A stretch of DNA of 49,995 nt from a phage: the sequence record NC_105507.1; one strand, given 5' to 3'. Below the pieces are notes generated by a model. The model was not told where the DNA came from, ran no database searches, and saw nothing but the letters and a program-made list of their open reading frames with translations. A program made the position numbers and the translations under genes. Positions 1,476 to 46,463 of the stretch are shown here, one piece after another (within the stretch, counting starts at the first letter, position 1; every line of letters starts with the position of its first letter).

Positions 1476-1518
1476 TAGCATTTTTTGTTAAAACAGTTTA
1501 TTGTAATGAGTCTATTAT
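1476..1518 (+). promoter_or_regulatory. TAGCAC-box promoter-like cassette
   Basis: TAGCATTTTTTGTTAAAAC box then TATTAT 22 bp after TTGTTA; upstream of helicase gene. Confidence 0.5.
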
Positions 1519-3548: not shown

Positions 3549-3967
3549 TGGCTATAACTGATAAAGGAGATTATCTTGAGTTTTACGAAAGAGATCCAAC
3601 CGACACGAGAAAGGAAGTTAATCACCAGATAGATAGCTTTCAGTGGTTGACTTATGCTCATCCTTATTTGCTAGCGTGGCATACGGTAAACGAGAATGAG
3701 AAGTCGAAAGTAACGGCGATGATTGATCAGCAGTCCGGCTTGGTTAAGGGGGTAAGCGATTTCATCATCCTGATTGGTTCAAACGGAAAATACCCCTTTG
3801 CAGCGATTGAGATCAAACGAGTGAATAAATCAGGCAAGGGGAAAGCATCACCAGTCAGCGATGAACAAAAGGCTTTTTTGCGTCGCGTTCGCAGCTTAGG
3901 AGGATTCGCTGCGGTCGCCTACGGATTTAATCAGTTTAAGTTAGCTATTGAATACATGCTTAAATAG
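3548..3967 (+). CDS. VRR-NUC domain nuclease (PD-(D/E)XK)
   Basis: DFIIL...AIEIK...Q pattern typical of VRR-NUC; ATG overlaps helicase stop (TAATG). Confidence 0.65.
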   Translation: MAITDKGDYLEFYERDPTDTRKEVNHQIDSFQWLTYAHPYLLAWHTVNENEKSKVTAMIDQQSGLVKGVSDFIILIGSNGKYPFAAIEIKRVNKSGKGKASPVSDEQKAFLRRVRSLGGFAAVAYGFNQFKLAIEYMLK

Positions 3968-4007
3968 CACTTTTTGTTAAAACTGGCGCGATGGATTGCG
4001 CCATAAT
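3965..4007 (+). promoter_or_regulatory. TAGCAC-box promoter-like cassette
   Basis: exact box TAGCACTTTTTGTTAAAAC, GGCGC/GCGCC hairpin, CATAAT 22 bp after TTGTTA. Confidence 0.55.
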
Positions 4008-5035: not shown

Positions 5036-5078
5036 TAGCACTTTTTGTTAAAACGCCCGGCATTTTGTCGGGCATAAT
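5036..5078 (+). promoter_or_regulatory. TAGCAC-box promoter-like cassette
   Basis: exact box, hairpin GCCCGGC..GTCGGGC, CATAAT at 22-bp spacing. Confidence 0.55.
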
Positions 5079-8252: not shown

Positions 8253-8295
8253 AATATACCCGACACTAGGCCGGGCGTTTTAACAAAAAATGCTA
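8253..8295 (-). promoter_or_regulatory. TAGCAC-box promoter-like cassette
   Basis: box variant, hairpin arms identical to the 5055-5072 copy, TATATT at 22-bp spacing. Confidence 0.5.
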
Positions 8296-10386: not shown

Positions 10387-10414
10387 TCGTTAGCTTCTCC
10401 TTTGTGGGCCGTAA

Positions 10415-10457
10415 ATTTTAACGGCCCAATACTACCCCGTTTTGTCAAAAAGTGCTA
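10415..10457 (-). promoter_or_regulatory. TAGCAC-box promoter-like cassette
   Basis: box variant containing TTGACA; TAAAAT in loop of GGGCCGT/ACGGCCC hairpin at 22-bp spacing. Confidence 0.55.
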
Positions 10458-11088: not shown

Positions 11089-11131
11089 ATTATGCCAGGT
11101 TTTTACACCTGGCTTTTAACAAAAAGTGCTA
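11089..11131 (-). promoter_or_regulatory. TAGCAC-box promoter-like cassette
   Basis: box, GCCAGG/CCTGGC hairpin, CATAAT. Confidence 0.55.
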
Positions 11132-13005: not shown

Positions 13006-13048
13006 AATATACCATTCAGGCGCACATCGTTTTTAACAAAAAGTGCTA
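13006..13048 (-). promoter_or_regulatory. TAGCAC-box promoter-like cassette
   Basis: box (TTGTTAAAAAC variant), TATATT at 22-bp spacing. Confidence 0.5.
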
Positions 13049-14310: not shown

Positions 14311-14353
14311 AATGTACCCGATCAGGCGGCCTGAGTTTTAACAAAAAGCGCTA
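14311..14353 (-). promoter_or_regulatory. TAGCAC-box promoter-like cassette (leftward early)
   Basis: box variant TAGCGC, TCAGG/CCTGA hairpin, TACATT at 22-bp spacing. Confidence 0.5.
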
Positions 14354-14383
14354 TTTGACGGTTAGCACCAGGATTGTGATCGA

Positions 14384-14474
14384 AATAATCAAAAGTAATC
14401 ATTCGTAATCAAATCACGTCAAAATGATGATTGCCTTTGCAAATTTGATGAGAAAAGTAATCACGTTTAATCAT
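14384..14474. repeat. phased iteron-like array (TAATCA x5)
   Basis: TAATC at about 14386, 14396, 14406 (10-bp phasing) and 14458, 14468. Confidence 0.5.
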
Positions 14475-14649
14475 TGGTTGCAGTGGAGATAGTGAAACCT
14501 TCCCCTCTTGCCTCACTTTTCCGCCTGGCTGTCAGTGGTTGTTGTCTTTTGTTCACCCCTGTTACCGATTTCAGGCGGCGTGTTTCCGCGCGGTTTTCCG
14601 GTGTAGCGAAAACGGAAAAAACAAAGAAAATCCTCTATAATACATTGAA

Positions 14650-14810
14650 AATAAAGATTATTTATTTATATATATCTATAATGTTTTCTTTTTGTTCTCA
14701 CTGTTACAGTGCTTTTTGTTGGTTATGGTGTGGTTGTGTGTGGGTATATATGGATAGTTGCGCGCGCGGCGGATTGCATATGTATATATACTTTTTCCGG
14801 CGGATTGCGT
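14650..14810. repeat. AT/GT-rich intergenic element, copy A (homologous to 44060-44205)
   Basis: shared blocks TTTATTTATTTA, T-rich CTTGTT, GT-rich GGTT repeats, CATRTGTATRTATATA..CCGGCG; contains direct repeat CGGCGGATTGC x2. Confidence 0.5.
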
Positions 14811-14909
14811 TAACAGCGTGAACAGAAAAATAACAGCCGCGAAATCAATAACTTGCGCATGATTTTGTAGTTTTTCGATATTGGTAACGTTTTGAATACA
14901 ACAAAAACA

Positions 14910-14937
14910 TTGACACGCACCAAATAGCTTTTATAAT
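14910..14937 (+). promoter_or_regulatory. consensus sigma70-type promoter (rightward early)
   Basis: TTGACA-16 bp-TATAAT, about 30 bp upstream of RBS/ATG 14969. Confidence 0.7.
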
Positions 14938-15430: not shown

Positions 15431-15702
15431 TGAAAAAGGCATTAATCAGCGTTTTGGCGGCAATGGCATTCCTGACCGGATGCAAAGAAAATGGCGCGCA
15501 TGTTGGCAATGTGCAGATGGCTAACCCTGGTGATGACTACAGCGTAAGGGAGCTATTCACCGCTGACGGTTGCACCGTTTACCGATTCTATGACGATCGC
15601 ACTGTTTACTTCACCAACTGCAAGGGCACTACTAGCCGGGAAGTGTCGAAAAGCAATGGCAAAGGCACGAAGACAGAACATATGACCGTCGAGACAAAAT
15701 AG
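15430..15702 (+). CDS. lipoprotein (candidate superinfection-exclusion/receptor-blocking)
   Basis: signal peptide with lipobox LTGC (MKKALISVLAAMAFLTGC); TAATG overlap with upstream gene. Confidence 0.7.
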   Translation: MKKALISVLAAMAFLTGCKENGAHVGNVQMANPGDDYSVRELFTADGCTVYRFYDDRTVYFTNCKGTTSREVSKSNGKGTKTEHMTVETK

Positions 15703-15742
15703 CACTTTTTGTTAAAACTCAAAAACGATAATCAGGCATAAT
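15700..15742 (+). promoter_or_regulatory. TAGCAC-box promoter-like cassette
   Basis: exact box overlapping TAG stop; CATAAT at 22-bp spacing. Confidence 0.5.
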
Positions 15743-15944
15743 ACACACATAGACGGGCGGCAAGGATTGCTGCGGGAGAGGAGCGACGCAGGGGCTTGAT
15801 CGAAGTGTCAGGATTCCCAACCGTGAGGCCAGAACTATCACACTCGCCACCAGGCAGAACGCTAGATAGGTCACTGAGCTGAGGCTACCGACGAAGTGAA
15901 GCCCGTCACCAAAGATTAAACGATTATTTATGTGAAAGGGGTTA
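15743..15944 (+). ncRNA. candidate structured non-coding RNA or long structured leader
   Basis: about 200 bp GC-rich stretch with no plus-strand ORF, downstream of box cassette; complementary GACGGGC/GCCCGTC about 160 nt apart. Confidence 0.3.
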
Positions 15945-16127
15945 ATGATGGATAAGATCATCAAAATGAGCGAAGCCAAGCCGGGAATGATGGTTAAGTT
16001 TGCTGGCAAATATCGCCTAGTGCTGGATAACTGCCGCAAAGAGAACATTCTTACCATTCGTGTAAATGGCAAGGCGCAGCTATTCGCCCCTAACGCAGAT
16101 ATTGACGTTGAAGTTAGAATTAAGTAA
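15945..16127 (+). CDS. hypothetical protein
   Basis: ORF with purine-rich RBS. Confidence 0.45.
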   Translation: MMDKIIKMSEAKPGMMVKFAGKYRLVLDNCRKENILTIRVNGKAQLFAPNADIDVEVRIK

Positions 16128-16142
16128 TCAGGAGAAAGCACC

Positions 16143-16715
16143 ATGTTAAAACTTGCTGACATTAAATTCCCGATCACCTTCCGCACGACTGGTGAGTCAA
16201 CGATTCGCTACACATCGCGCGAAAATGGCGTTTATAGCGATGGTACGAAATCATGGTTGAAAGTTGATTTCTTTGTCAACGGTCACAATAGACACAATCC
16301 GCACAACGAAGAGGATAAAGTGTACTACGTGGAAGACATTACAAAACACTTATTTGGAGAAACTCCATTCGGCGGCGGTAAGACGTCAATTCAAAAAATC
16401 ATTGGCGATGAGATCCACAAAGCGGCTACCGAAATGAAAGCGCCTGGAGGCTGGCGTATTGACAAGAGCGCATTTGCAAATCAAGAAATCGTAACGCAGG
16501 GCGCAATTGAAGATATGCCAGTTGCAGCCACTCTAAAAGGAGTCCGGCTTGATGACGGCACCTGGTATGAAGTAACGGCCACACCAAAGACGATCGAGAT
16601 TCATGATGACGTTGTTATCCTTCTGCTTCACTACGGCGGCTATAAAAACCGGACGATTGCAGGTGAGATCAGCATTAAGCGCGGAACGATGGTTAAGTGG
16701 AAGGTCAAAGTGTAA
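16143..16715 (+). CDS. hypothetical protein
   Basis: AGGAG RBS; 190-aa ORF. Confidence 0.6.
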   Translation: MLKLADIKFPITFRTTGESTIRYTSRENGVYSDGTKSWLKVDFFVNGHNRHNPHNEEDKVYYVEDITKHLFGETPFGGGKTSIQKIIGDEIHKAATEMKAPGGWRIDKSAFANQEIVTQGAIEDMPVAATLKGVRLDDGTWYEVTATPKTIEIHDDVVILLLHYGGYKNRTIAGEISIKRGTMVKWKVKV

Positions 16716-16716
16716 A

Positions 16717-16758
16717 TAGCACTTTTTGTTAAAACTCAAATGTGGGGCCAGGTATAAT
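16717..16758 (+). promoter_or_regulatory. TAGCAC-box promoter-like cassette
   Basis: exact box; TATAAT in loop of GGGCC/GGCCC hairpin (21-bp spacing). Confidence 0.55.
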
Positions 16759-16788
16759 GGCCCTACTTTCAACGAAGGAGATAAAACG

Positions 16789-17019
16789 ATGTACATTAAA
16801 AAGAAGATGAAATGCGTTTCCGTTAACTATGCTTGCTCTGGCATGTTCAAGCCTGGCGAAATCTATACGGCGCAAAAACTGAAATCATCAACCGGATCTT
16901 TTTACGTGAGCAATAGTAAGGGGCATCGCATGTTCCTGAACGGCGGCGAAGGCACTAAGGTTATGGCACACGCTATGGTAATGGCTGAATTTGAGGAAGT
17001 GAAAGATGAAAACAAATAA
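16789..17019 (+). CDS. hypothetical protein
   Basis: AAGGAG RBS before ATG 16789. Confidence 0.5.
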   Translation: MYIKKKMKCVSVNYACSGMFKPGEIYTAQKLKSSTGSFYVSNSKGHRMFLNGGEGTKVMAHAMVMAEFEEVKDENK

Positions 17020-17227
17020 GCGCGTCAAGCACAGGTTTACTGATAACCACGGCGACGCGATTGATGTATACAAGTTTGGCGATCGAGTTTTTATTGATGG
17101 CACGTTTGAAGGTGGGCGTAGGCCGGATTTTAGGTCGATACTTACCGTTGACCAAGTGCGCAAGCTGGCAGATAAGTTAAATGATCTGGCAGATGAAATA
17201 GAATACAAGCAAATCCATTTTAATTGA
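17006..17227 (+). CDS. hypothetical protein
   Basis: ORF overlapping upstream stop. Confidence 0.5.
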   Translation: MKTNKRVKHRFTDNHGDAIDVYKFGDRVFIDGTFEGGRRPDFRSILTVDQVRKLADKLNDLADEIEYKQIHFN

Positions 17228-17238
17228 TAGGTTTTATA

Positions 17239-17949
17239 ATGAAAAAATACACTTTCGAACTATGGGGCAAGAAGTACGAATTAATCACCAGCAAGCCGAT
17301 TGTTATCGTTGACCTGGACGGCACACTATCGGACGGATCGCATCGTTTGCATTTGCTGCCAACTGAAAACTTACACCTTACGGAATCGTGGAGCGAATTT
17401 AACAGGGCCGCCGCCGGAGATTCACCGATTAAAAGCACGATCGCGGTTATTAACGGTTTGTGGGTGTCGGGATTTGCCATCGTCATCTTGACCGGACGCA
17501 GCGACGAGGTGCGCTATGAAACCTGCAAATGGTTGAATGAGAGCGGCGTGAAGTTTGACGAAATCATCATGCGCCGCCAGGAGGACAACCGAAAGGATAC
17601 GGTTATTAAAGAAGAAGCCTTGCGCGCTATTGGCCTGGACAACATTGTTTGCGCCTTTGACGATTCGCCGAACGTGGTTAAGCACTTCCGCAGCTTGGGG
17701 ATCACAACCTATCAGGTCACGGAATACGACAAGCCACACGCTCACATACAATCTCACGGCGTGGAATCAATAAAGATCACGAAGCGCGCCCGATTCGTCG
17801 ACAGCAAAGACAGCATGGTTAATGCCAGCTTTATCAAAGGCAAGGTTTATGATGTTCATAGCCATGATAAAAACCGATTCTTTTTGTGGGATGAAAAAGG
17901 TTTTGGCTGGTGCTTTGAACACGACGACGGCGATTTTGTTAATGCGTAA
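17239..17949 (+). CDS. HAD-superfamily phosphatase (nucleotidase / polynucleotide 3'-phosphatase-like)
   Basis: DLDGT motif I, LTGRS motif II, FDDS motif IV. Confidence 0.75.
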   Translation: MKKYTFELWGKKYELITSKPIVIVDLDGTLSDGSHRLHLLPTENLHLTESWSEFNRAAAGDSPIKSTIAVINGLWVSGFAIVILTGRSDEVRYETCKWLNESGVKFDEIIMRRQEDNRKDTVIKEEALRAIGLDNIVCAFDDSPNVVKHFRSLGITTYQVTEYDKPHAHIQSHGVESIKITKRARFVDSKDSMVNASFIKGKVYDVHSHDKNRFFLWDEKGFGWCFEHDDGDFVNA

Positions 17950-17992
17950 TAGCACTTTTTGTTAAAACATCTTAACGGGCTTGCGGTATAGT
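17950..17992 (+). promoter_or_regulatory. TAGCAC-box promoter-like cassette
   Basis: exact box after TAA stop; TATAGT in loop of GGGCTT/AAGCCC hairpin at 22-bp spacing. Confidence 0.55.
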
Positions 17993-18023
17993 AAGCCCAT
18001 CAACAACAAGCGAGGATTAAATC

Positions 18024-18287
18024 ATGGCTAACAAGATCGAATTTTTCAAAGCGGTAGACATTATTGATGGTGCTCCTAGCTTCTTTGCCATCCATTCCAT
18101 TGACGGCAAGGATATTGGGTACAACGTTATCCGTCGAGATGGAATCTCAAAACTTAGCGATCTGGTAGGGCATATTGTGTCAAACGGGAAGTGCGCATGG
18201 CCCGATTCGCCACGAGAGCCACGCCGCCTCGACATGGTAGAGCCTGTTCTGCTTTACACTCTGGTAGTAGAAGGAGAAAATAAATGA
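18024..18287 (+). CDS. hypothetical protein
   Basis: GAGG RBS. Confidence 0.5.
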   Translation: MANKIEFFKAVDIIDGAPSFFAIHSIDGKDIGYNVIRRDGISKLSDLVGHIVSNGKCAWPDSPREPRRLDMVEPVLLYTLVVEGENK

Positions 18288-18469
18288 TTTGGTTACTTGC
18301 TTTTTTGGTTGTTTTTCTTTACATTTCAGGCTTGTTTACGTTCCGCGCGTTGGTGAAATATTCTGACGCGACAGACAAAGACGATAAAATCGTTCTCGCT
18401 TTCTGGTTTGTTTGGGTGTGGTTAGCAATTTACGAGATCATCAGAGACAAACAGAAATTTGAGTGGTGA
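18284..18469 (+). CDS. small membrane protein
   Basis: hydrophobic 61-aa ORF, ATGA overlap. Confidence 0.45.
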   Translation: MIWLLAFLVVFLYISGLFTFRALVKYSDATDKDDKIVLAFWFVWVWLAIYEIIRDKQKFEW

Positions 18470-18528
18470 TTCTTGCTATGGCGCATTCATGCAGTGCGCC
18501 ATGTTGAGAAAACCTAAAGGGGGAGACG

Positions 18529-18648
18529 ATGCGTAACTTTGAAAAAATCATTACCAAAAAGAAGCGTCGCGGGTACGATGAGCATGTGGAGCTTGTGAAA
18601 GCAACGCAAGAAGCGCAACGAAGACAAGAAGCGCGGGAAAAAATTTAA
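18529..18648 (+). CDS. small basic protein (39 aa)
   Basis: below track cutoff; GGGGGAG RBS; preceded by perfect inverted repeat ATGGCGCA..TGCGCCAT. Confidence 0.3.
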   Translation: MRNFEKIITKKKRRGYDEHVELVKATQEAQRRQEAREKI

Positions 18649-18678
18649 TGCGATTTTTCGCTATGGAGATCATTAATC

Positions 18679-19269
18679 ATGAAGCGAGACATTATCATCC
18701 TTAATGGGCCGCCAGGTTGCGGGAAGGACACTATTGCAGCTTACCTAACGGGCCATCGTTACCCAGCGGTTAAGGCGTCATTCAAACAGCCGATGTTCGA
18801 TATTGCGTTTTCCATGCTTGGCCCGACTCGATATGATGAGTTTATTGACCTGTACAACGACCGAGAGCAAAAAGAAAAGCCTCAAGTTATCTTAGGCGGC
18901 AAGTCACCTCGACAATTCATGATCTGGATTAGCGAGGATGTAATGAAGCCAGTCTTTGGGGAGCAGTATTTCGGGCGTCGAATGGTTGAAGAGATTAACG
19001 AGATGTACCGAGATTTGACGGTTGTGATCAGTGATGGCGGATTCCCCGAAGAAATCAAGCCGCTTGTTAAGGCAGGGCATGAAGTGCATATTTGCCGATT
19101 GCATCGCGACGGCTTCACGTTTGCTGGCGATTCGAGAGACTACATTGACCTGAGCGGTTATCACTATCGAATCCATCACTATGACTTCCACTTGCAGGAC
19201 GGCAAGCCGGAACTGGCTGTAAACGAGATCGTCAATGCTGTCAAATGGAAGCACACACAGATTAAATAG
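18679..19269 (+). CDS. P-loop nucleotide kinase (dNMP kinase-like)
   Basis: P-loop GPPGCGKDT resembling the GKDT loop of phage dNMP kinases; GGAG RBS. Confidence 0.7.
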   Translation: MKRDIIILNGPPGCGKDTIAAYLTGHRYPAVKASFKQPMFDIAFSMLGPTRYDEFIDLYNDREQKEKPQVILGGKSPRQFMIWISEDVMKPVFGEQYFGRRMVEEINEMYRDLTVVISDGGFPEEIKPLVKAGHEVHICRLHRDGFTFAGDSRDYIDLSGYHYRIHHYDFHLQDGKPELAVNEIVNAVKWKHTQIK

Positions 19270-19309
19270 CACTAATTGCTAAACGCGGGGCGCAATGCCT
19301 CGCTATAAT
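19267..19309 (+). promoter_or_regulatory. TAGCAC-box promoter-like cassette (variant)
   Basis: TAGCACTAATTGCTAAAC, imperfect hairpin, TATAAT at 22-bp spacing. Confidence 0.5.
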
Positions 19310-19339
19310 GCAAACACCAATCAACGAGAGGAAACAATC

Positions 19340-19741
19340 ATGGTGGAGTTAAACGACATTCGCGTTGGAACAAAATTTCGCGTAACCTGGGCAGATAAAT
19401 ATTGTGGCGTTAGCAAGGGCCAGGTTGTTGCGGTGGATAGTATTTATCGTGGTGTTAGTGGTGACTTTCGCCGTCCGCGCATCAATAATGGCTATATTAT
19501 TACTCGCCGTATTGGCTTTGATAATTATTGCGTAGTGGCGACTCAAGGAGTTTTGATTGAGCTTAAGAGAATCAGCGATCATCGCGGTCGTCATGTTAAG
19601 GCAATGAAAACACCATTTCAGCGAGCGAGATACGATGCGCGACGTATGCGCCGACTTGCGCGAAATGCGATCAAGTTCAAAAAGCCTGGCGATGATTTTT
19701 ACGGCATGTATAAGGGGATTGCGCGCAATGCTGGGAAATAA
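19340..19741 (+). CDS. hypothetical protein
   Basis: GAGG RBS before ATG 19340 (track ORF from 19295). Confidence 0.5.
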   Translation: MVELNDIRVGTKFRVTWADKYCGVSKGQVVAVDSIYRGVSGDFRRPRINNGYIITRRIGFDNYCVVATQGVLIELKRISDHRGRHVKAMKTPFQRARYDARRMRRLARNAIKFKKPGDDFYGMYKGIARNAGK

Positions 19742-19840
19742 CAATAACGCAACGAATCCTAAGACACCTTTTGATTTTCATTCCGCAATGATTGCGGTAT
19801 TATCAATGCTACTTTTTCTTTATAGCATGAGGGCGCTACT

Positions 19841-20089
19841 ATGGTTTTTAACGCATTGAAACGACTGTTTAAGCCGGAATACCGGATCGTATTTTGCCGC
19901 GACTGTTCTACTTATCATGTGCAGCGACGCAGCTTAGGCGGCAATTGGCACTATGTTACAGACGACTTTTTCGGCATCATTGCCACTGAATTTAAGTATT
20001 ACAGCGATGCTTATATGTACGTCAAGAAGCGCCACCGCTTACGCAAGTGTCGTTTTTCCGTGCTGATTCACGTTAATGATTGTTACTGA
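19841..20089 (+). CDS. hypothetical Cys-containing protein
   Basis: GAGGG RBS. Confidence 0.45.
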   Translation: MVFNALKRLFKPEYRIVFCRDCSTYHVQRRSLGGNWHYVTDDFFGIIATEFKYYSDAYMYVKKRHRLRKCRFSVLIHVNDCY

Positions 20090-20096
20090 GGTGAAA

Positions 20097-20258
20097 ATGA
20101 AAACTGGTATTATTATTCTTTTCCTGATTCTTTTCGGCAGTCATTTAACCATTAACTATGAGGGCATTATGGCCTTTTGGGGCAACTTGATTATGTTTGC
20201 CGCTGGTTCAATTGCTGGCTACTCTGACGGGAAAAGGATGGTGTGCGCAAGATGCTGA
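20097..20258 (+). CDS. small membrane protein
   Basis: hydrophobic; GAGGTG RBS before ATG 20097. Confidence 0.4.
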   Translation: MKTGIIILFLILFGSHLTINYEGIMAFWGNLIMFAAGSIAGYSDGKRMVCARC

Positions 20259-20289
20259 TGGGGCTTAAACAAAAATAAGGGGATATGAA

Positions 20290-20580
20290 ATGGCAAACAA
20301 AACTTACCGCAAACTACTGGTTAACGCTTTTGAAAACATCGCGCAGTGTAACAAGTGGAACGACTCTAAACACTCGCCAGTCACAATGAAGCGCGCTGGA
20401 TTCAAAAATGCTCGTTCATGGGCGAGAGCTTTCGCATCTTGCTATATGCCGGATGGCGGATTAGGGGTGATGAACGATTTTTTGATCAACATGATAGAGC
20501 AAGCGGCGCGAGAGGATCGACCGCTGACACAGCGAGATTTTGACGACTTCGCGCGCGATGAGCTTTACTATCTGAGCTAA
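20290..20580 (+). CDS. hypothetical protein
   Basis: AAGGGG RBS. Confidence 0.5.
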   Translation: MANKTYRKLLVNAFENIAQCNKWNDSKHSPVTMKRAGFKNARSWARAFASCYMPDGGLGVMNDFLINMIEQAAREDRPLTQRDFDDFARDELYYLS

Positions 20581-20623
20581 TAGCACTTTTTGTTAAAACT
20601 TCCGCAAGGGCATTTGGTAAAGT
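20581..20623 (+). promoter_or_regulatory. TAGCAC-box promoter-like cassette
   Basis: exact box right after TAA stop; TAAAGT in loop of AAGGGCA/TGCCCTT hairpin. Confidence 0.5.
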
Positions 20624-20655
20624 GCCCTTATTGAAGCGAAACAGAGGAAAGCGCA

Positions 20656-20868
20656 ATGAAAATCAAAATCACCAAAATCGACACTATCAACGGCGACGGA
20701 TCAATCACTCTTGAGCAATGTGGCTTGGTTGTTGGTGATGTGCTGGAAGTTGACGGACATTTCAGCGACGGATCTTATTGTGTTATTGCGCCGCGCAACA
20801 GCGAGTTTATCAAGGCTGGCGACAATATTAGTGTTAACCATGACGAATGCGAGGTAGTAGAAGAATGA
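20656..20868 (+). CDS. hypothetical acidic protein
   Basis: GAGGAAA RBS. Confidence 0.5.
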   Translation: MKIKITKIDTINGDGSITLEQCGLVVGDVLEVDGHFSDGSYCVIAPRNSEFIKAGDNISVNHDECEVVEE

Positions 20869-22630: not shown

Positions 22631-22675
22631 CCGTTGTCTGGTATAATCAGGCATCTAACCAAAGGAGGATTAATA

Positions 22676-23203
22676 ATGGCTAAAAATGTTGAGCCTGCTG
22701 TAAAGGCATTAAATTTCAAAGAGTTATACAATAAAACTTATGGCGATATTGTCACGCTAAACAACCGCCACAAGTACACGCCGGAACAGGTTTTTGATAT
22801 GGCGATCCGCTATTTCACTTGGGCTGAAGAGAATCACATCCAGGCGGCTGAAACTGCTTCCTTTCAGGGTGACGTGTACGAGAGCAGAGTTTACAAGCCT
22901 CGCGTTTTCACGGTTAACGGATTCAGCTTGTATCTCGGCGTGACTGAGGCTGCCGTAAGCAAATGGCGTAAAGAGCCTGGATTCTGCGATGTGATGGAGT
23001 TTGTTGATAAAGTAATTTACGAGCAAAAATTCCAGCTTGCGGCAAATAACATGATTAATGCTGGATTTATCGGTAAAGAGATCGGCGTAGAGAAGCCAGC
23101 AACAGTGAGCGTTGAAGCTAGCGCGGCAGCTAATGCAAGCATTGACGCAGTAACTGCCGATGAGGTGAAAGAGGCTGTTATTGATATTCTGGAGCAACTT
23201 TAA
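22676..23203 (+). CDS. terminase small subunit
   Basis: HTH-like segment, position immediately upstream of large terminase; AGGAGG RBS. Confidence 0.7.
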   Translation: MAKNVEPAVKALNFKELYNKTYGDIVTLNNRHKYTPEQVFDMAIRYFTWAEENHIQAAETASFQGDVYESRVYKPRVFTVNGFSLYLGVTEAAVSKWRKEPGFCDVMEFVDKVIYEQKFQLAANNMINAGFIGKEIGVEKPATVSVEASAAANASIDAVTADEVKEAVIDILEQL

Positions 23204-24771
23204 TGATCATATGGGAAGATTTGACGGCGGCGCAAAAGCGAGCCATTAAAGAAATCAGTGAGCATTCATTCGAAAAGATGATCAGAATCTGGTTTCAGTT
23301 ATTGCAGGGGCAAAAATTCCAGAGCAACTGGCATTTTAGCTTATTGTGCAGTGAGGTAGAGAAGATCATCAATGGAGAGTCGCAGAATGTGATTTTCAAC
23401 ATTACGCCAGGTAGCGGTAAGACTGAGATTTTCTCGATCCACATGTCACCATACGCGTCATTGAAAACTCGGAAGGTGAGAAACCTTAACCTTTCGTTTA
23501 GTGATGGACTTGTCCAGCAAAACAGCAACAGGATAAAGGAGATTATCGGTTCTCCTGAGTGGCAAGAGCTATGGCCAGGAAAACTGGCAAAGGCGAGCGC
23601 AAAAGATCTCATAGTTACGGATGGCGGCAAGGTTAAATTGCAAGTTAACTCACGTTCTATTGGCGGACAGGTAACAGGTTTGCGTGGCGGCTATATGGAC
23701 GATGGTTTTACTGGTATGCTGGTTCTGGACGATCCAGACAAGCCGGATGATATGCTTTCTAAGGTCAAGCGTGAGGCGATCCACATGCGGTTAAAAAACA
23801 CAGTGCGATCGCGTCGAATGAAAGACACTACGCCGATTGTTATGGTGCAACAGCGACTACACGTTAATGATTCCACCTGGTTCATGCTTAATGGCGGGAT
23901 GGGCGGTATTGAGTTTAAAGTTGTGAGCATTCCTGCGCTGGTTACGAAAGAATACCGCGAAACGCTTCCTGATTGGTTGAAGCCTGAATTTGATCGTGAT
24001 GTGTTGTCAAGTAAGCCAGTGATGATAGATGGCGTTGCTCATTATTCATTTTGGCCTGCGAAGGAAAGCGCGGAGGAATTGCTTGCATTGCGCAATGCAG
24101 ATCCTTATACGTTCGCCAGTCAGTACCAACAGCAACCCATCGCGCTTGGCGGCAACGTGTTTAAAACAGAGTGGTTCCAGTATTACGGCAGCGGCGAAAA
24201 ATGCGCACTTCCTAAACCGGATCGCTTTGAATACACATTTATTACTGGTGATACCGCGCAGAAGGCCGGAGAGCTTAACGACTATTCAGTTTTTTGTTAT
24301 TGGGGGATGTATAAGAATCGCGTTTACTTCATTGATGGCATTCGCGGAAAGTGGGAAGCGCCGGATCTTGAATTAAATTTTATTGCCTTCGTTAATCAGT
24401 GCTGGAAGCGCAATAAGGAGTGTGGCAGCTTGCGACGTATCCACATTGAGGATAAGGCCAGCGGCACGGGTTTGATTCAGGGGGCCAAAAAGAAGATCCC
24501 GATTGATATAAATCCCGTTCAGCGAAGCAATGACAAGGTAACGCGAGCAATGGACGCCGCGCCAGTAATGAGGGCCGGACGTGTGGCACTGCCAGAAAGT
24601 CATCCCATGTTACCTGAGATACTGGCAGAGGTTGCAGCGTTCACTTTTGACGATTCTCATCCCCATGATGATATTGTCGATAATATAGTTGATGCTGTTA
24701 ACGTCGAAATGAACTTGGCTGATGATCCGGTAGCAAGGATGAAAAAGCTGGCTGGTCTACGCAATAAATAG
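23203..24771 (+). CDS. terminase large subunit
   Basis: 522 aa, P-loop-like TPGSGKT, acidic C-terminal nuclease region, synteny. Confidence 0.85.
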   Translation: MIIWEDLTAAQKRAIKEISEHSFEKMIRIWFQLLQGQKFQSNWHFSLLCSEVEKIINGESQNVIFNITPGSGKTEIFSIHMSPYASLKTRKVRNLNLSFSDGLVQQNSNRIKEIIGSPEWQELWPGKLAKASAKDLIVTDGGKVKLQVNSRSIGGQVTGLRGGYMDDGFTGMLVLDDPDKPDDMLSKVKREAIHMRLKNTVRSRRMKDTTPIVMVQQRLHVNDSTWFMLNGGMGGIEFKVVSIPALVTKEYRETLPDWLKPEFDRDVLSSKPVMIDGVAHYSFWPAKESAEELLALRNADPYTFASQYQQQPIALGGNVFKTEWFQYYGSGEKCALPKPDRFEYTFITGDTAQKAGELNDYSVFCYWGMYKNRVYFIDGIRGKWEAPDLELNFIAFVNQCWKRNKECGSLRRIHIEDKASGTGLIQGAKKKIPIDINPVQRSNDKVTRAMDAAPVMRAGRVALPESHPMLPEILAEVAAFTFDDSHPHDDIVDNIVDAVNVEMNLADDPVARMKKLAGLRNK

Positions 24772-24788
24772 CACTAATTGCTAAAAAG
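24769..24788 (+). repeat. degenerate TAGCAC box copy
   Basis: TAGCACTAATTGCTAAAAAG overlapping terminase stop; no -10 at canonical spacing. Confidence 0.4.
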
Positions 24789-24800
24789 TTATATAATCAA

Positions 24801-24830
24801 GGCTGGATTTTTCCAGCCTTTTTTATTATG
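24801..24830 (+). terminator. rho-independent terminator
   Basis: GGCTGGA..TCCAGCC stem plus T6. Confidence 0.6.
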
Positions 24831-28534: not shown

Positions 28535-28538
28535 AATT

Positions 28539-28567
28539 AAGGCGCTCGCTTGAGCGCCTTTTTTATT
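28539..28567 (+). terminator. rho-independent terminator
   Basis: GGCGCTC/GAGCGCC stem plus T-run. Confidence 0.6.
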
Positions 28568-28584
28568 ATGTAAGGAGAAATGAA

Positions 28585-29367: not shown

Positions 29368-29392
29368 CTGATAGCATAAAAAAACATTGCAC

Positions 29393-29410
29393 GTTTAACA
29401 AAAAGTGCTA
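29393..29410 (-). repeat. degenerate TAGCAC box copy (antisense in structural module)
   Basis: revcomp TAGCACTTTTTGTTAAAC; no good -10 at canonical spacing. Confidence 0.4.
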
Positions 29411-29417
29411 TCATCTA

Positions 29418-29444
29418 GGCCGTTACATTTAACGGCCTTTTTTA
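29418..29444 (+). terminator. rho-independent terminator
   Basis: GGCCGTT/AACGGCC stem plus T6. Confidence 0.6.
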
Positions 29445-29457
29445 TGGAGGAAGCAAA

Positions 29458-30429: not shown

Positions 30430-30440
30430 TTAGATAACAT

Positions 30441-30469
30441 GGGGAGCCTTAAGGGTTCCCCTTTTTTTT
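30441..30469 (+). terminator. rho-independent terminator
   Basis: 8-bp GC stem plus T8 after capsid gene. Confidence 0.75.
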
Positions 30470-30487
30470 ATTTACGGAGTACACAAA

Positions 30488-33083: not shown

Positions 33084-33088
33084 AACAA

Positions 33089-33110
33089 GGGGGCGTTGCG
33101 CCCCTTTTTT
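33089..33110 (+). terminator. rho-independent terminator
   Basis: GGGGCG/CGCCCC stem plus T6. Confidence 0.7.
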
Positions 33111-33125
33111 CATTCCTGTAAAATC

Positions 33126-33168
33126 AATCTATCAAATAAATTAATTCCACTTTTAACAAAAAGTGCTA
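33126..33168 (-). promoter_or_regulatory. TAGCAC-box promoter-like cassette, antisense to tail genes
   Basis: revcomp box, TAGATT at 22-bp spacing, pointing leftward into terminator hairpin. Confidence 0.4.
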
Positions 33169-33183
33169 TAAGGAGATCTTAAG

Positions 33184-33818: not shown

Positions 33819-33857
33819 GCGCCGCGAGGCGCTTTTTTAATATCTGGAGGTTTTAAA

Positions 33858-36892: not shown

Positions 36893-36896
36893 TTTT

Positions 36897-36922
36897 AAAG
36901 CCGCCTTTGTGCGGCTTTTTTC
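36897..36922 (+). terminator. rho-independent terminator
   Basis: AGCCGC/GCGGCT stem plus T6. Confidence 0.6.
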
Positions 36923-36955
36923 TTGATGTTACAATGAGCAAAAAGGAGGTAGAAA

Positions 36956-39025: not shown

Positions 39026-39055
39026 AAAAATACCCGCCTTGCGCGGGTTTTTTTG
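39024..39055 (+). terminator. rho-independent terminator
   Basis: CCCGC/GCGGG stem plus T7, flanked upstream by A7. Confidence 0.65.
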
Positions 39056-39103
39056 TGCATTTATAATGTGCAAACCAAGAAACAGCACAAAAGGTTAAAA
39101 GTC

Positions 39104-43904: not shown

Positions 43905-43946
43905 ACTATACACGATCTTGGGCATCGCGTTTAGCAAAAAGTGCTA
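43905..43946 (-). promoter_or_regulatory. TAGCAC-box promoter-like cassette (variant) for reverse cassette
   Basis: revcomp TAGCACTTTTTGCTAAAC, TATAGT at 21-bp spacing, then AAGGAG RBS. Confidence 0.5.
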
Positions 43947-45430: not shown

Positions 45431-45505
45431 TAAACTAAACAAATAGCTAAACTTTTATAATGGTTGGTGATATAATTCGCCAACCAGATAACTGGAGAAT
45501 GAGAA

Positions 45506-46420: not shown

Positions 46421-46463
46421 TAAACGGGGCGCTTGCGCCCCTTTTGTCATAGGAGAAAACAAA

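What the first reader, a model, noticed from the sequence alone, without database searches (positions are those of the whole stretch)
15700..20623. In the rightward early cluster the -10 hexamer lies inside a hairpin loop
At the copies ending 16735, 17968 and 20599 (and the minus copy at 10457) the -10-like hexamer forms the loop of a 5-7 bp GC-rich hairpin (for example GGGCCaggTATAATGGCCC). The hairpin has no U-tract, so it is not a standard intrinsic terminator. On read-through transcripts it could be an RNase III or RNA-stability element; on DNA it could be an extrudable cruciform that shortens the effective -35/-10 distance.
Basis: partly seen in the sequence, partly recalled or inferred. 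Interest (0 to 1): 0.6.

Follow-up and report, generated by a model that had tools for sequence, protein, structure and literature searches.

The report
Promoter-embedded RNA hairpins in T1-like phage
In this T1-like coliphage and across its family, the promoters between genes carry a conserved hairpin wrapped around, or just upstream of, the -10 box; the evidence points to an RNA hairpin on transcripts reading through from the upstream gene, not to a DNA cruciform that tunes the promoter.

Summary
The window is a Warwickvirus (Drexlerviridae). Its 19-nt repeat TAGCACnnnTTGnTAAAAC lies a fixed 17-18 nt upstream of a sigma70 -10 hexamer preceded by G at -14, with no usable -35.

Hairpins enclose the -10 at the copies ending 16735, 17968, 20599 and 10457(-), each beating shuffles (p <= 0.006). 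In 47 related loci, including T1, 207 of 411 unique copies have a perfect stem of at least 5 bp around the -10. Another 52 have the hairpin inside the spacer.

- Arms differ between copies and orthologues but stay complementary through compensatory changes.
- Wobble positions are G:T on the sense strand in 29 helices against 1 A:C.
- Hairpins are stronger where a same-strand gene ends at the repeat.
- The 3' arm usually ends at -1, so locally started transcripts lack the hairpin.
- No U-tract follows.
- Hairpin-less copies keep the same repeat-to-hexamer spacing.

Best reading: an RNA boundary or stability hairpin on read-through transcripts, fitted into the free positions of the next promoter. 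RNase III cleavage and a distance-shortening cruciform are not supported. The exact function is inferred. The repeat is published; I found no description of the hairpin.

The parts
15700..15718 (+). Direct-repeat (DR) promoter element TAGCACTTTTTGTTAAAAC. Its -10 is CATAAT at 15737-15742. This copy has no hairpin.
   Evidence: MFE 0.0
16717..16735 (+). DR promoter element, about -49 to -31 relative to the predicted start.
16742..16766 (+). Hairpin enclosing the -10 (type B): GUGGGGCCA / UGGCCCUAC, loop GGUAUAA. The -10 TATAAT is at 16753-16758. Predicted start is A16765.
   Evidence: I4
17950..17968 (+). DR promoter element.
17977..17998 (+). Hairpin enclosing the -10: GGGCUUGC / GUAAGCCC. The -10 TATAGT is at 17987-17992. 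Predicted start is A17999.
   Evidence: I5; orthologue covariation
19267..19285 (+). DR variant TAGCACTAATTGCTAAACG.
19285..19303 (+). Hairpin inside the spacer (type A): GCGGGGC / GCCUCGC with one G.U, loop GCAAU. It abuts the -10 TATAAT at 19304-19309.
20581..20599 (+). DR promoter element.
20606..20629 (+). Hairpin enclosing the -10: AAGGGCAUUU / AAGUGCCCUU. The -10 TAAAGT is at 20618-20623, preceded by TGg. Predicted start is A20630.
   Evidence: I2; orthologue covariation
10439..10457 (-). DR promoter element with 2 mismatches (TAGCACTTTTTGACAAAAC).
10405..10428 (-). Hairpin enclosing the -10: UGGGCCGU / ACGGCCCA. The -10 TAAAAT is at 10420-10415.
   Evidence: orthologue arms
3965..4007 (+). 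DR (3965-3983), spacer hairpin (3984-4003) and -10 CATAAT (4002-4007).
5036..5078 (+). DR (5036-5054), spacer hairpin (5055-5073) and -10 CATAAT (5073-5078).
8253..8295 (-). DR (8295-8277), spacer hairpin (8276-8258) and -10 TATATT (8258-8253). The tail is T-rich, and this is the only promoter hairpin that the terminator scan flagged.
11089..11131 (-). DR (11131-11113), spacer hairpin CCAGGU / ACCUGG (11112-11095) and -10 CATAAT (11094-11089).
1476..1518 (+). DR promoter at the head of a transcription unit (divergent junction). Same 18-nt spacing to TATTAT, no GC-rich hairpin.
14311..14353 (-). DR promoter heading the leftward unit. Same spacing, only a weak 5-bp hairpin.
43905..43946 (-). DR promoter at a divergent junction, with only a weak 4-bp hairpin.
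13006..13048 (-). Internal DR promoter with only a weak hairpin; an exception to the pattern.

Best explanation
Each unit is a compact gene junction. The upstream gene stops in or at the 19-nt direct repeat. The repeat plus a -10 hexamer preceded by G at -14 forms the promoter of the next gene.

A GC-rich hairpin is written into the only promoter positions that are free to vary. These are the spacer (about -24 to -15) and the discriminator (about -7 to -1), which leaves the -10 in the loop. Less often both arms lie in the spacer.

The hairpin works as sense-strand RNA on transcripts that read through from upstream. It is absent from RNA started at its own promoter, because the 3' arm ends at about -1.

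With no U-tract it is not a canonical terminator. Most likely it is a cistron-boundary stability element. It would block 3'-to-5' exonucleases for the upstream message. It may also cap the 5' end of a downstream fragment after cleavage in the AU-rich repeat. A weak attenuating effect is possible.

Shown: position, pairing, covariation, strand asymmetry, link to upstream context, lack of a U-tract. Inferred: the start site, RNA as the folded molecule, and the stabilising function.
For: - Promoter anatomy over 411 unique copies from 48 sequences: invariant repeat, 16 variable nt, G 86% at -14, TATAAT (A 87% at -11, T 82% at -7), a C-rich discriminator, and A 75% seven nt after the hexamer.
- Repeat units sit at the heads of the divergent units at 1476, 14353(-) and 43946(-), where the repeat unit is the only promoter-like element found.
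- Census: 207 copies with the -10 in the loop, 52 with the hairpin in the spacer, 12 downstream. The 3' arm ends at -1 in 106 of the 207.
- Pairing is copy-specific. Stems of at least 6 bp occur in 41.6% of copies against 6.1% when arms are swapped between copies; stems of at least 7 bp in 27% against 1.8%.
- Orthologue covariation. Alignment A1 is 86.5% paired against 35-50% when partners are slid, with 5 of 10 pairs changed on both sides and 0 of 500 shuffles reaching the score. Alignment A3 is 82.7% paired, with G-C to C-G and G-C to U-A changes. Orthologues of the 10457 copy use arms GGGCCGT/ACGGCCC, TTGCCG/CGGCAA, GGTTGACC/GGTCAACC, GGTTGCCC/GGGCAAC and GGTTGGCC/GGCCAACC.
- Sense-strand wobble in 29 distinct helices (at least 15 clusters) against 1 A:C. 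This holds for promoters on either genome strand; binomial p = 6e-8, and 5e-4 by cluster.
- Context. Copies with same-strand coding upstream reach MFE <= -8 in 86% of cases (median -14.1). Copies with opposite-strand coding upstream do so in 55% (median -9.2). Mann-Whitney p = 2.5e-8 on unique sequences and 0.018 on cluster medians.
- The TAG of the repeat is the upstream stop codon in 164 of 254 cases.
- RNA stability is -15 to -17 kcal/mol.
- The same design with a true terminator occurs at 24769-24820. Late-operon junctions carry canonical terminators.
Against: - No 5' or 3' end mapping for any T1-like phage was found in the held literature. The start site and the RNA role are therefore inferred.
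- G:T wobble is also tolerated in single-stranded DNA, so a hairpin on the non-template DNA strand alone is not excluded.
- About half of the copies without a same-strand upstream gene still have a hairpin.
- Two internal promoters in the window (15700, 13048) have little or none.
- The cluster-level significance of the context effect is modest (p = 0.018).
- Nothing here separates stabiliser from weak attenuator.
Confidence: 0.55

Rival explanations
1. The hairpin is a non-canonical attenuator or insulator. It makes part of the read-through polymerases pause or terminate at each internal promoter. This separates 'transcriptons' and limits interference with the next promoter.
For: - It has the same position and form as a terminator stem directly after a stop codon.
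- At 24769-24820 the equivalent hairpin is a canonical terminator with a U-tract, conserved in 20 orthologues.
- Late-operon junctions carry canonical terminators.
- The TLS annotation lists terminator T62 directly after repeat DR12.
- The spacer hairpin at 8276-8258 has a T-rich tail.
Against: - After hairpins that enclose the -10, T is 18% and A is 46%; only 10 of 207 have at least 5 T in 8 nt.
- T content there equals that of hairpin-less copies (0.19 against 0.16), so there is no sign of selection for a U-tract.
- By established knowledge, E. coli RNA polymerase needs the U-tract for intrinsic termination.
- The phage does use full terminators where it can.
Confidence: 0.22
2. This is a DNA-level promoter device. 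In one version a cruciform forms. In the other, only the non-template strand folds, presenting the -10 as single-stranded DNA or changing promoter geometry.
For: - The inverted repeat is centred on the upstream edge of the -10.
- G:T wobble on the non-template strand would fit a hairpin on that strand alone.
- The promoters lack a -35, and their TTGnTA lies 22 bp from the hexamer.
Against: - Hairpin-less copies have identical spacing.
- 52 copies place the whole hairpin in the spacer, with the -10 outside it.
- The 29:1 wobble asymmetry argues against a two-strand cruciform.
- DNA hairpins give only -5 to -9 kcal/mol per strand, with 4-10 nt loops.
- Hairpins are weakest at divergent junctions, where negative supercoiling should be greatest.
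- G at -14 suggests that no -35 contact is needed.
Confidence: 0.08
3. The hairpin is an RNase III processing site between cistrons, as in the T7 early region.
For: It is an intercistronic RNA hairpin in polycistronic phage RNA.
Against: Perfect stems are 5-11 bp (mode 6-7), or 8-10 bp with G.U. Folding 100-nt contexts gives no conserved lower helix or internal-loop architecture.
Confidence: 0.03
4. The inverted repeat is an operator for a dimeric DNA-binding regulator that overlaps the -10.
For: It is an inverted repeat over the -10, and many arms share GGGC...GCCC.
Against: - Arm sequences differ widely between copies and between orthologues while staying complementary.
- The register varies by 1-3 nt.
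- Wobble is strand-specific.
- No DNA-binding domain was found in 20 early proteins scanned.
Confidence: 0.03

Closest known systems
21-nt direct repeats of phage TLS (aaATAGCACnnnTTGnTAAAA; PMC11447400, 2024), also reported there for T1, Rtp and Rogue1
   Same: It is the same repeat, oriented with transcription and lying about 75 nt before start codons. There are 15 copies with at most 3 mismatches in this window and 491 in 48 related sequences.
   Different: The paper leaves the function open (stoperator, enhancer site or UP-like element) and reports only three sigma70-like promoters. It mentions neither the fixed 18-nt distance to a -10 hexamer preceded by G at -14 nor the hairpin.
Extended -10 sigma70 promoters, and class II activator-dependent promoters (galP1 with CRP at -41.5; lambda PRM with cI at OR2, about -42)
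   Same: TATAAT with G at -14 (86%) and T at -15 (48%), no -35, and a conserved upstream element whose quasi-palindrome TAGCA-N5-TG(C/T)TA is centred at about -42. The comparison with galP1 and PRM comes from my own knowledge.
   Different: No binding protein is known. Deviations in the quasi-palindrome are almost never compensated (39 broken against 2 paired), so it is a sequence element and not a helix. No promoter assay exists.
Intrinsic (Rho-independent) terminators
   Same: A GC-rich stem-loop right after a stop codon. Canonical terminators occupy equivalent junctions in the late operon and at 24799-24820.
   Different: No U-tract follows, and loops are often 6-10 nt because they hold the -10.
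3'-protective stem-loops: REP elements, and the stem-loops to which Rho-dependent 3' ends are trimmed in E. coli
   Same: A stable intercistronic RNA hairpin without a U-tract, on the sense strand. This is a functional analogy from my own knowledge.
   Different: These hairpins are not a repeated sequence family; only the pairing is conserved. They are built into a promoter. No half-life data exist.
RNase III sites of the T7 early region
   Same: Intercistronic RNA structure in a lytic coliphage.
   Different: Stems are far too short, and the two-helix architecture with an internal loop is missing.
Hairpin promoters of phage N4 used by its virion RNA polymerase
   Same: A short GC-rich hairpin at a phage promoter.
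   Different: By my own knowledge, N4 hairpins have 3-nt loops, act on the template strand and need a phage RNA polymerase. Here the loops hold a sigma70 -10. No RNA polymerase gene is expected: the longest ORF is 1209 aa, and TLS has none.

Membership tests
Drexlerviridae 21-nt direct repeat (TLS DR) | Consensus aaATAGCACnnnTTGnTAAAA | tested here: met
   15 copies with at most 3 mismatches against 0.01 expected by chance.
Drexlerviridae 21-nt direct repeat (TLS DR) | Intergenic, oriented with transcription, about 76 nt before the start codon | tested here: met
   16717 to ATG 16789 is 72 nt, 17950 to 18024 is 74 nt, and 20581 to 20656 is 75 nt.
Drexlerviridae 21-nt direct repeat (TLS DR) | Shared across T1-like genera | tested here: met
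   3-14 copies in each of 47 loci, including T1 (L157).
sigma70 extended -10 promoter | -10 hexamer with A at -11 and T at -7, at a fixed position | tested here: met
   A 87% and T 82%, at positions 19-24 after the repeat.
sigma70 extended -10 promoter | TG at -15/-14 | tested here: inconclusive
   G at -14 is 86% but T at -15 only 48%. Of the four reported copies, only the one at 20581 has TGn.
sigma70 extended -10 promoter | Mapped transcription start and RNA polymerase dependence | not testable with these tools
   No mapping data were found. The start is inferred from a conserved C-A seven nt after the hexamer.
Intrinsic terminator | GC-rich stem-loop after the end of a gene | tested here: met
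Intrinsic terminator | U-tract directly after the stem | tested here: not met
   T is 18% in the 8 nt after the stem, and 10 of 207 have at least 5 T. The terminator scan did not flag the four hairpins.
RNase III processing site | About 20 bp of double-stranded RNA, or two stacked helices | tested here: not met
   Stems are 5-11 bp, and no extended helix appears in 100-nt folds.
N4-type hairpin promoter | 5-7 bp stem with a 3-nt loop | tested here: not met
   Loops of 3 nt occur in 2 of 207; the mode is 10 nt for perfect stems.
N4-type hairpin promoter | A phage-encoded RNA polymerase that reads the hairpin | tested here: not met
   The longest ORF is 1209 aa. No RNA polymerase or sigma gene was found in TLS. 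The genome was not exhaustively annotated here.
Cruciform or palindromic operator | Pairing equally good on both strands | tested here: not met
   29 G:T helices against 1 A:C.
Cruciform or palindromic operator | A common arm sequence recognised by one protein | tested here: not met
   Arms differ between copies and between orthologues.
Conserved RNA secondary structure | Compensatory base changes that keep the pairs | tested here: met
   the swapped-arm control is.
3'-protective or boundary stability hairpin | Transcript ends at the hairpin base, and an effect on half-life | not testable with these tools
   Needs Term-seq or half-life measurements in infected cells.
Rfam families | A match at the gathering score | tested here: not met
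   0 matches in the window.

The most novel reading that the evidence does not exclude
The hairpin acts on DNA as a transcription-coupled promoter relay. In the negatively supercoiled wake of a polymerase reading through from upstream, only the non-template strand folds. That offers the -10 hexamer to sigma70 region 2 as a ready-made single-stranded loop. Promoters that lack a -35 could then fire without a separate melting step. This would fit the sense-strand G:T wobble and the link with same-strand upstream genes.
Probability: 0.05. Interest if true: 0.85.

Novelty: new variant of a known kind. Interest (0 to 1): 0.5.

Why it matters
- It gives T1-like phages the promoters that annotation has not found. 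The published TLS analysis reported only three sigma70-like promoters and left the function of 18 intergenic repeats open.
- It shows one 45-nt stretch carrying three overlapping codes: the stop codon of one gene, the promoter of the next, and an RNA hairpin seen only by read-through transcripts.
- This is a clean natural case in which promoter spacer and discriminator sequences are shaped by RNA-level selection.
- It yields exact, testable predictions for transcript starts and ends in a classic but poorly studied phage family.
- It is useful for annotating and engineering Drexlerviridae, which are common among therapeutic coliphage and Klebsiella phage isolates.

Tried and rejected
- Scanning IMG/VR with the degenerate repeat gave mostly single chance hits in unrelated contigs. 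I replaced it with loci anchored on the dNMP kinase gene.
- An anti-diagonal pairing profile over all anchored copies gave only a weak peak (ratio 1.26), because the helix register differs between promoters. The swapped-arm control and orthologue alignments were more informative.
- The MAFFT alignment of the orthologues of the 10457 copy (A2) put arms out of register, so I did not use it for pair counting.
- The -35 reading was rejected. TTGnTA lies 22 bp from the hexamer, and the hexamer at 17-18 bp is (T)AAAAC.
- A sigma54-like reading of TAGCAC-N3-TTGC was rejected, because it has AG in place of GG and the spacing is 2 nt short (my own knowledge of the consensus).
- The repeat as an RNA helix was rejected: 39 uncompensated against 2 compensated deviations.
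- The second hairpin over TATAAT at 22635-22653 is not conserved outside close relatives.
- The search for a repeat-binding regulator found nothing. Pfam and PHROGs on the early proteins gave no DNA-binding domain, and PDB sequence searches of the two genes behind the consensus promoter were uninformative.
- Rfam and tRNA scans were empty.
- The 15745-15915 leader is not significantly structured (z = 0.27).
- The Rtp genome paper could not be retrieved.

Full report
**What the window is.** Megablast places it at 98% identity to Escherichia phages swan01 and Phunderstruck, genus Warwickvirus, Drexlerviridae (T1-like). It covers almost the whole 51-kb genome.

**The repeat and the promoter around it.**
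- TAGCACTTTTTGTTAAAAC occurs 15 times with at most 3 mismatches, against 0.01 expected by chance. Every copy points the same way as the gene downstream.
- The repeat is published for phage TLS as a 21-nt direct repeat of unknown function, also seen in T1, Rtp and Rogue1. That paper found only three sigma70-like promoters and links the repeat neither to a -10 nor to a hairpin.
- I fetched 47 related loci, including T1, anchored on the dNMP kinase gene. They gave 491 repeat copies, 411 of them unique.
- The anchored frequency matrix shows the invariant repeat, then 16 variable nt. G follows at 86% (position -14), then one free nt, then TATAAT (A 87% at -11, T 82% at -7). A C-rich discriminator follows, and A at 75% seven nt after the hexamer.
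- There is no -35. TTGnTA lies 22 bp from the hexamer.
- Repeat units head the divergent transcription units at 1476, 14353(-) and 43946(-), where I found no other promoter-like element.
- I therefore read the unit as a sigma70 promoter of the extended -10 type, with the repeat at -49 to -31. This is an inference; no start-site mapping was found.
- Deviations within the quasi-palindrome of the repeat are not compensated (39 against 2). The repeat is conserved as sequence, not as structure.

**The observation.**
- As RNA they are worth -15 to -17 kcal/mol and beat dinucleotide shuffles (p <= 0.006 each). Over all 18 copies in the window the summed z-score is -8.9.
- With G.U pairs the stems reach 8-10 bp.
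- Within the stated range, the copy at 15700 has no hairpin, and the copy at 19267 has its hairpin in the spacer.

**Family-wide census.**
- Of 411 unique copies, 207 have a perfect stem of at least 5 bp enclosing the -10.
- 52 have both arms in the spacer, ending at the hexamer.
- Only 12 have a hairpin downstream.
- The 3' arm ends at -1 in 106 of the 207.
- Swapping the 3' segments between copies lowers stems of at least 6 bp from 41.6% to 6.1%, and stems of at least 7 bp from 27% to 1.8%. The pairing is therefore copy-specific and not a composition effect.

**Covariation.**
- Orthologues of the 20581 promoter are 86.5% paired, against 35-50% when partners are slid. Five of ten pairs change on both sides, and no shuffle in 500 reaches the observed score.
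- Orthologues of the 17950 promoter show G-C to C-G and G-C to U-A changes plus U.G wobble.
- Orthologues of the 10457 promoter use six different complementary arm pairs.

**Which molecule folds.**
- At single non-Watson-Crick positions flanked by pairs, 29 distinct helices in at least 15 orthologue clusters have G:T on the sense strand, and one has A:C. This holds for promoters on either genome strand.
- That argues against a two-strand cruciform and against a protein-bound palindrome. It fits sense-strand RNA.
- Because the 3' arm ends at about -1, only RNA coming from upstream can contain the hairpin.
- Copies behind same-strand coding sequence have strong hairpins in 86% of cases (median -14.1 kcal/mol). 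Copies behind opposite-strand coding have them in 55% (median -9.2). Mann-Whitney p is 2.5e-8 on unique sequences and 0.018 on cluster medians.
- In the window, all three unit-heading promoters lack a strong hairpin, while 10 of 12 internal ones have one.
- In 164 of 254 cases the TAG of the repeat is the upstream stop codon. Read-through into the promoter is therefore unavoidable.

**What it is not.**
- Not a canonical terminator. T is 18% and A is 46% after the stem, the same as in hairpin-less copies.
- Not an RNase III site. The stems are too short, and no lower helix forms.
- Not a spacer-shortening cruciform. Hairpin-less copies keep the same 17-18 nt spacing, the DNA hairpins are weak, and the -10 itself would be extruded.

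**What it most likely is.**
- Nearly every junction in this genome has a hairpin. In the late operon these are canonical terminators.
- At 24769-24820 a repeat is followed by TATAAT and then a true terminator whose 5' arm covers the predicted start, conserved in 20 orthologues.
- In the early clusters the hairpin has to share space with the next promoter. It uses exactly the unconstrained positions.
- I conclude it is a boundary or stability hairpin for read-through RNA (confidence 0.55). A weak attenuator role is the main rival (0.22).
- A hairpin on the non-template DNA strand alone cannot be fully excluded (0.08 for all DNA-level readings).

**Novelty.** The repeat is known. Its fixed geometry with a -10 and the covarying hairpin are not described in the literature I could search.

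Noticed in passing
window 24769-24830 (+): Between terminase large subunit and portal, a repeat copy is followed after only 4 nt by TATAAT (24792-24797). A canonical terminator follows (24799-24820, then TTTTTTATT). Its 5' arm covers the predicted start at about 24804. Read-through RNA would be terminated while locally started RNA would escape. The arrangement is conserved in 20 orthologues.
   Followed up: partly
window 14910-14937 (+): A perfect sigma70 consensus promoter (TTGACA, 16 nt, TATAAT) heads the rightward cluster, just before a DUF7174 gene and a 110-aa gene and upstream of the first rightward repeat promoter. This suggests a cascade in which consensus promoters fire first and repeat promoters need a phage factor. 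No DNA-binding domain was found in these proteins.
   Followed up: partly
window 14354-14909: About 550 nt without a convincing gene lie between the divergent units. They are AT-rich, with GTAATCA seen three times and GGCGGATTGC twice by eye. This may be a replication origin or control region.
   Followed up: no
window 29392-29410 (-) and 33150-33168 (-): Repeat copies point against the late operon, in late intergenic regions, with degenerate -10 hexamers and no GC-rich hairpin. The first is conserved across genera (25 orthologues). They may be antisense promoters.
   Followed up: partly
window 45443-45486 (+): A truncated repeat-like ATAGCTAAAC is followed by a 10-bp hairpin (45461-45470 with 45477-45486, one U.G pair). 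Its 6-nt loop is exactly TATAAT (45471-45476). The fold has z = -4.2.
   Followed up: partly
window 18478-18502 (+) and 19784-19798 (+): U-tract-less GC hairpins sit at early gene junctions that have no repeat: ATGGCGCA/TGCGCCAT, and CCGCAA/TTGCGG directly before TATTAT. Junction hairpins are therefore not tied to the repeat.
   Followed up: partly
window 28535-28584, 29368-29457, 30430-30487, 33084-33183, 33819-33857, 36893-36955, 39026-39103, 46421-46463 (+): Almost every intergenic gap of the late operon holds a canonical terminator with a long U-tract, directly before the next ribosome-binding site. This raises the question of how late transcription passes them (leaky terminators or antitermination).
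   Followed up: no
L153-L164 (T1 and close relatives), upstream of the orthologue of window ORF 22634-23203: In T1-type genomes a repeat-like AGCACTAAATGTTAAAC lies downstream of a TGGTAAAAT -10, inside the 5' leader just before the ribosome-binding site. The repeat is therefore not always upstream of a -10.
   Followed up: no
window, positions +1 to about +20 of many repeat promoters (e.g. 17999-18020, 12999-12980): Paralogous promoters share an A-rich leader, CATCGA(A/C)AACGAA(C)GAGGA, strong enough to merge unrelated promoters in flank-based clustering. This may be a translation or RNA-processing signal.
   Followed up: no
window 15719-15944 (+): An unusually long 226-nt leader lies between the hairpin-less promoter at 15700 and the ORF at 15945. 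It has no Rfam match and no significant fold (z = 0.27).
   Followed up: yes
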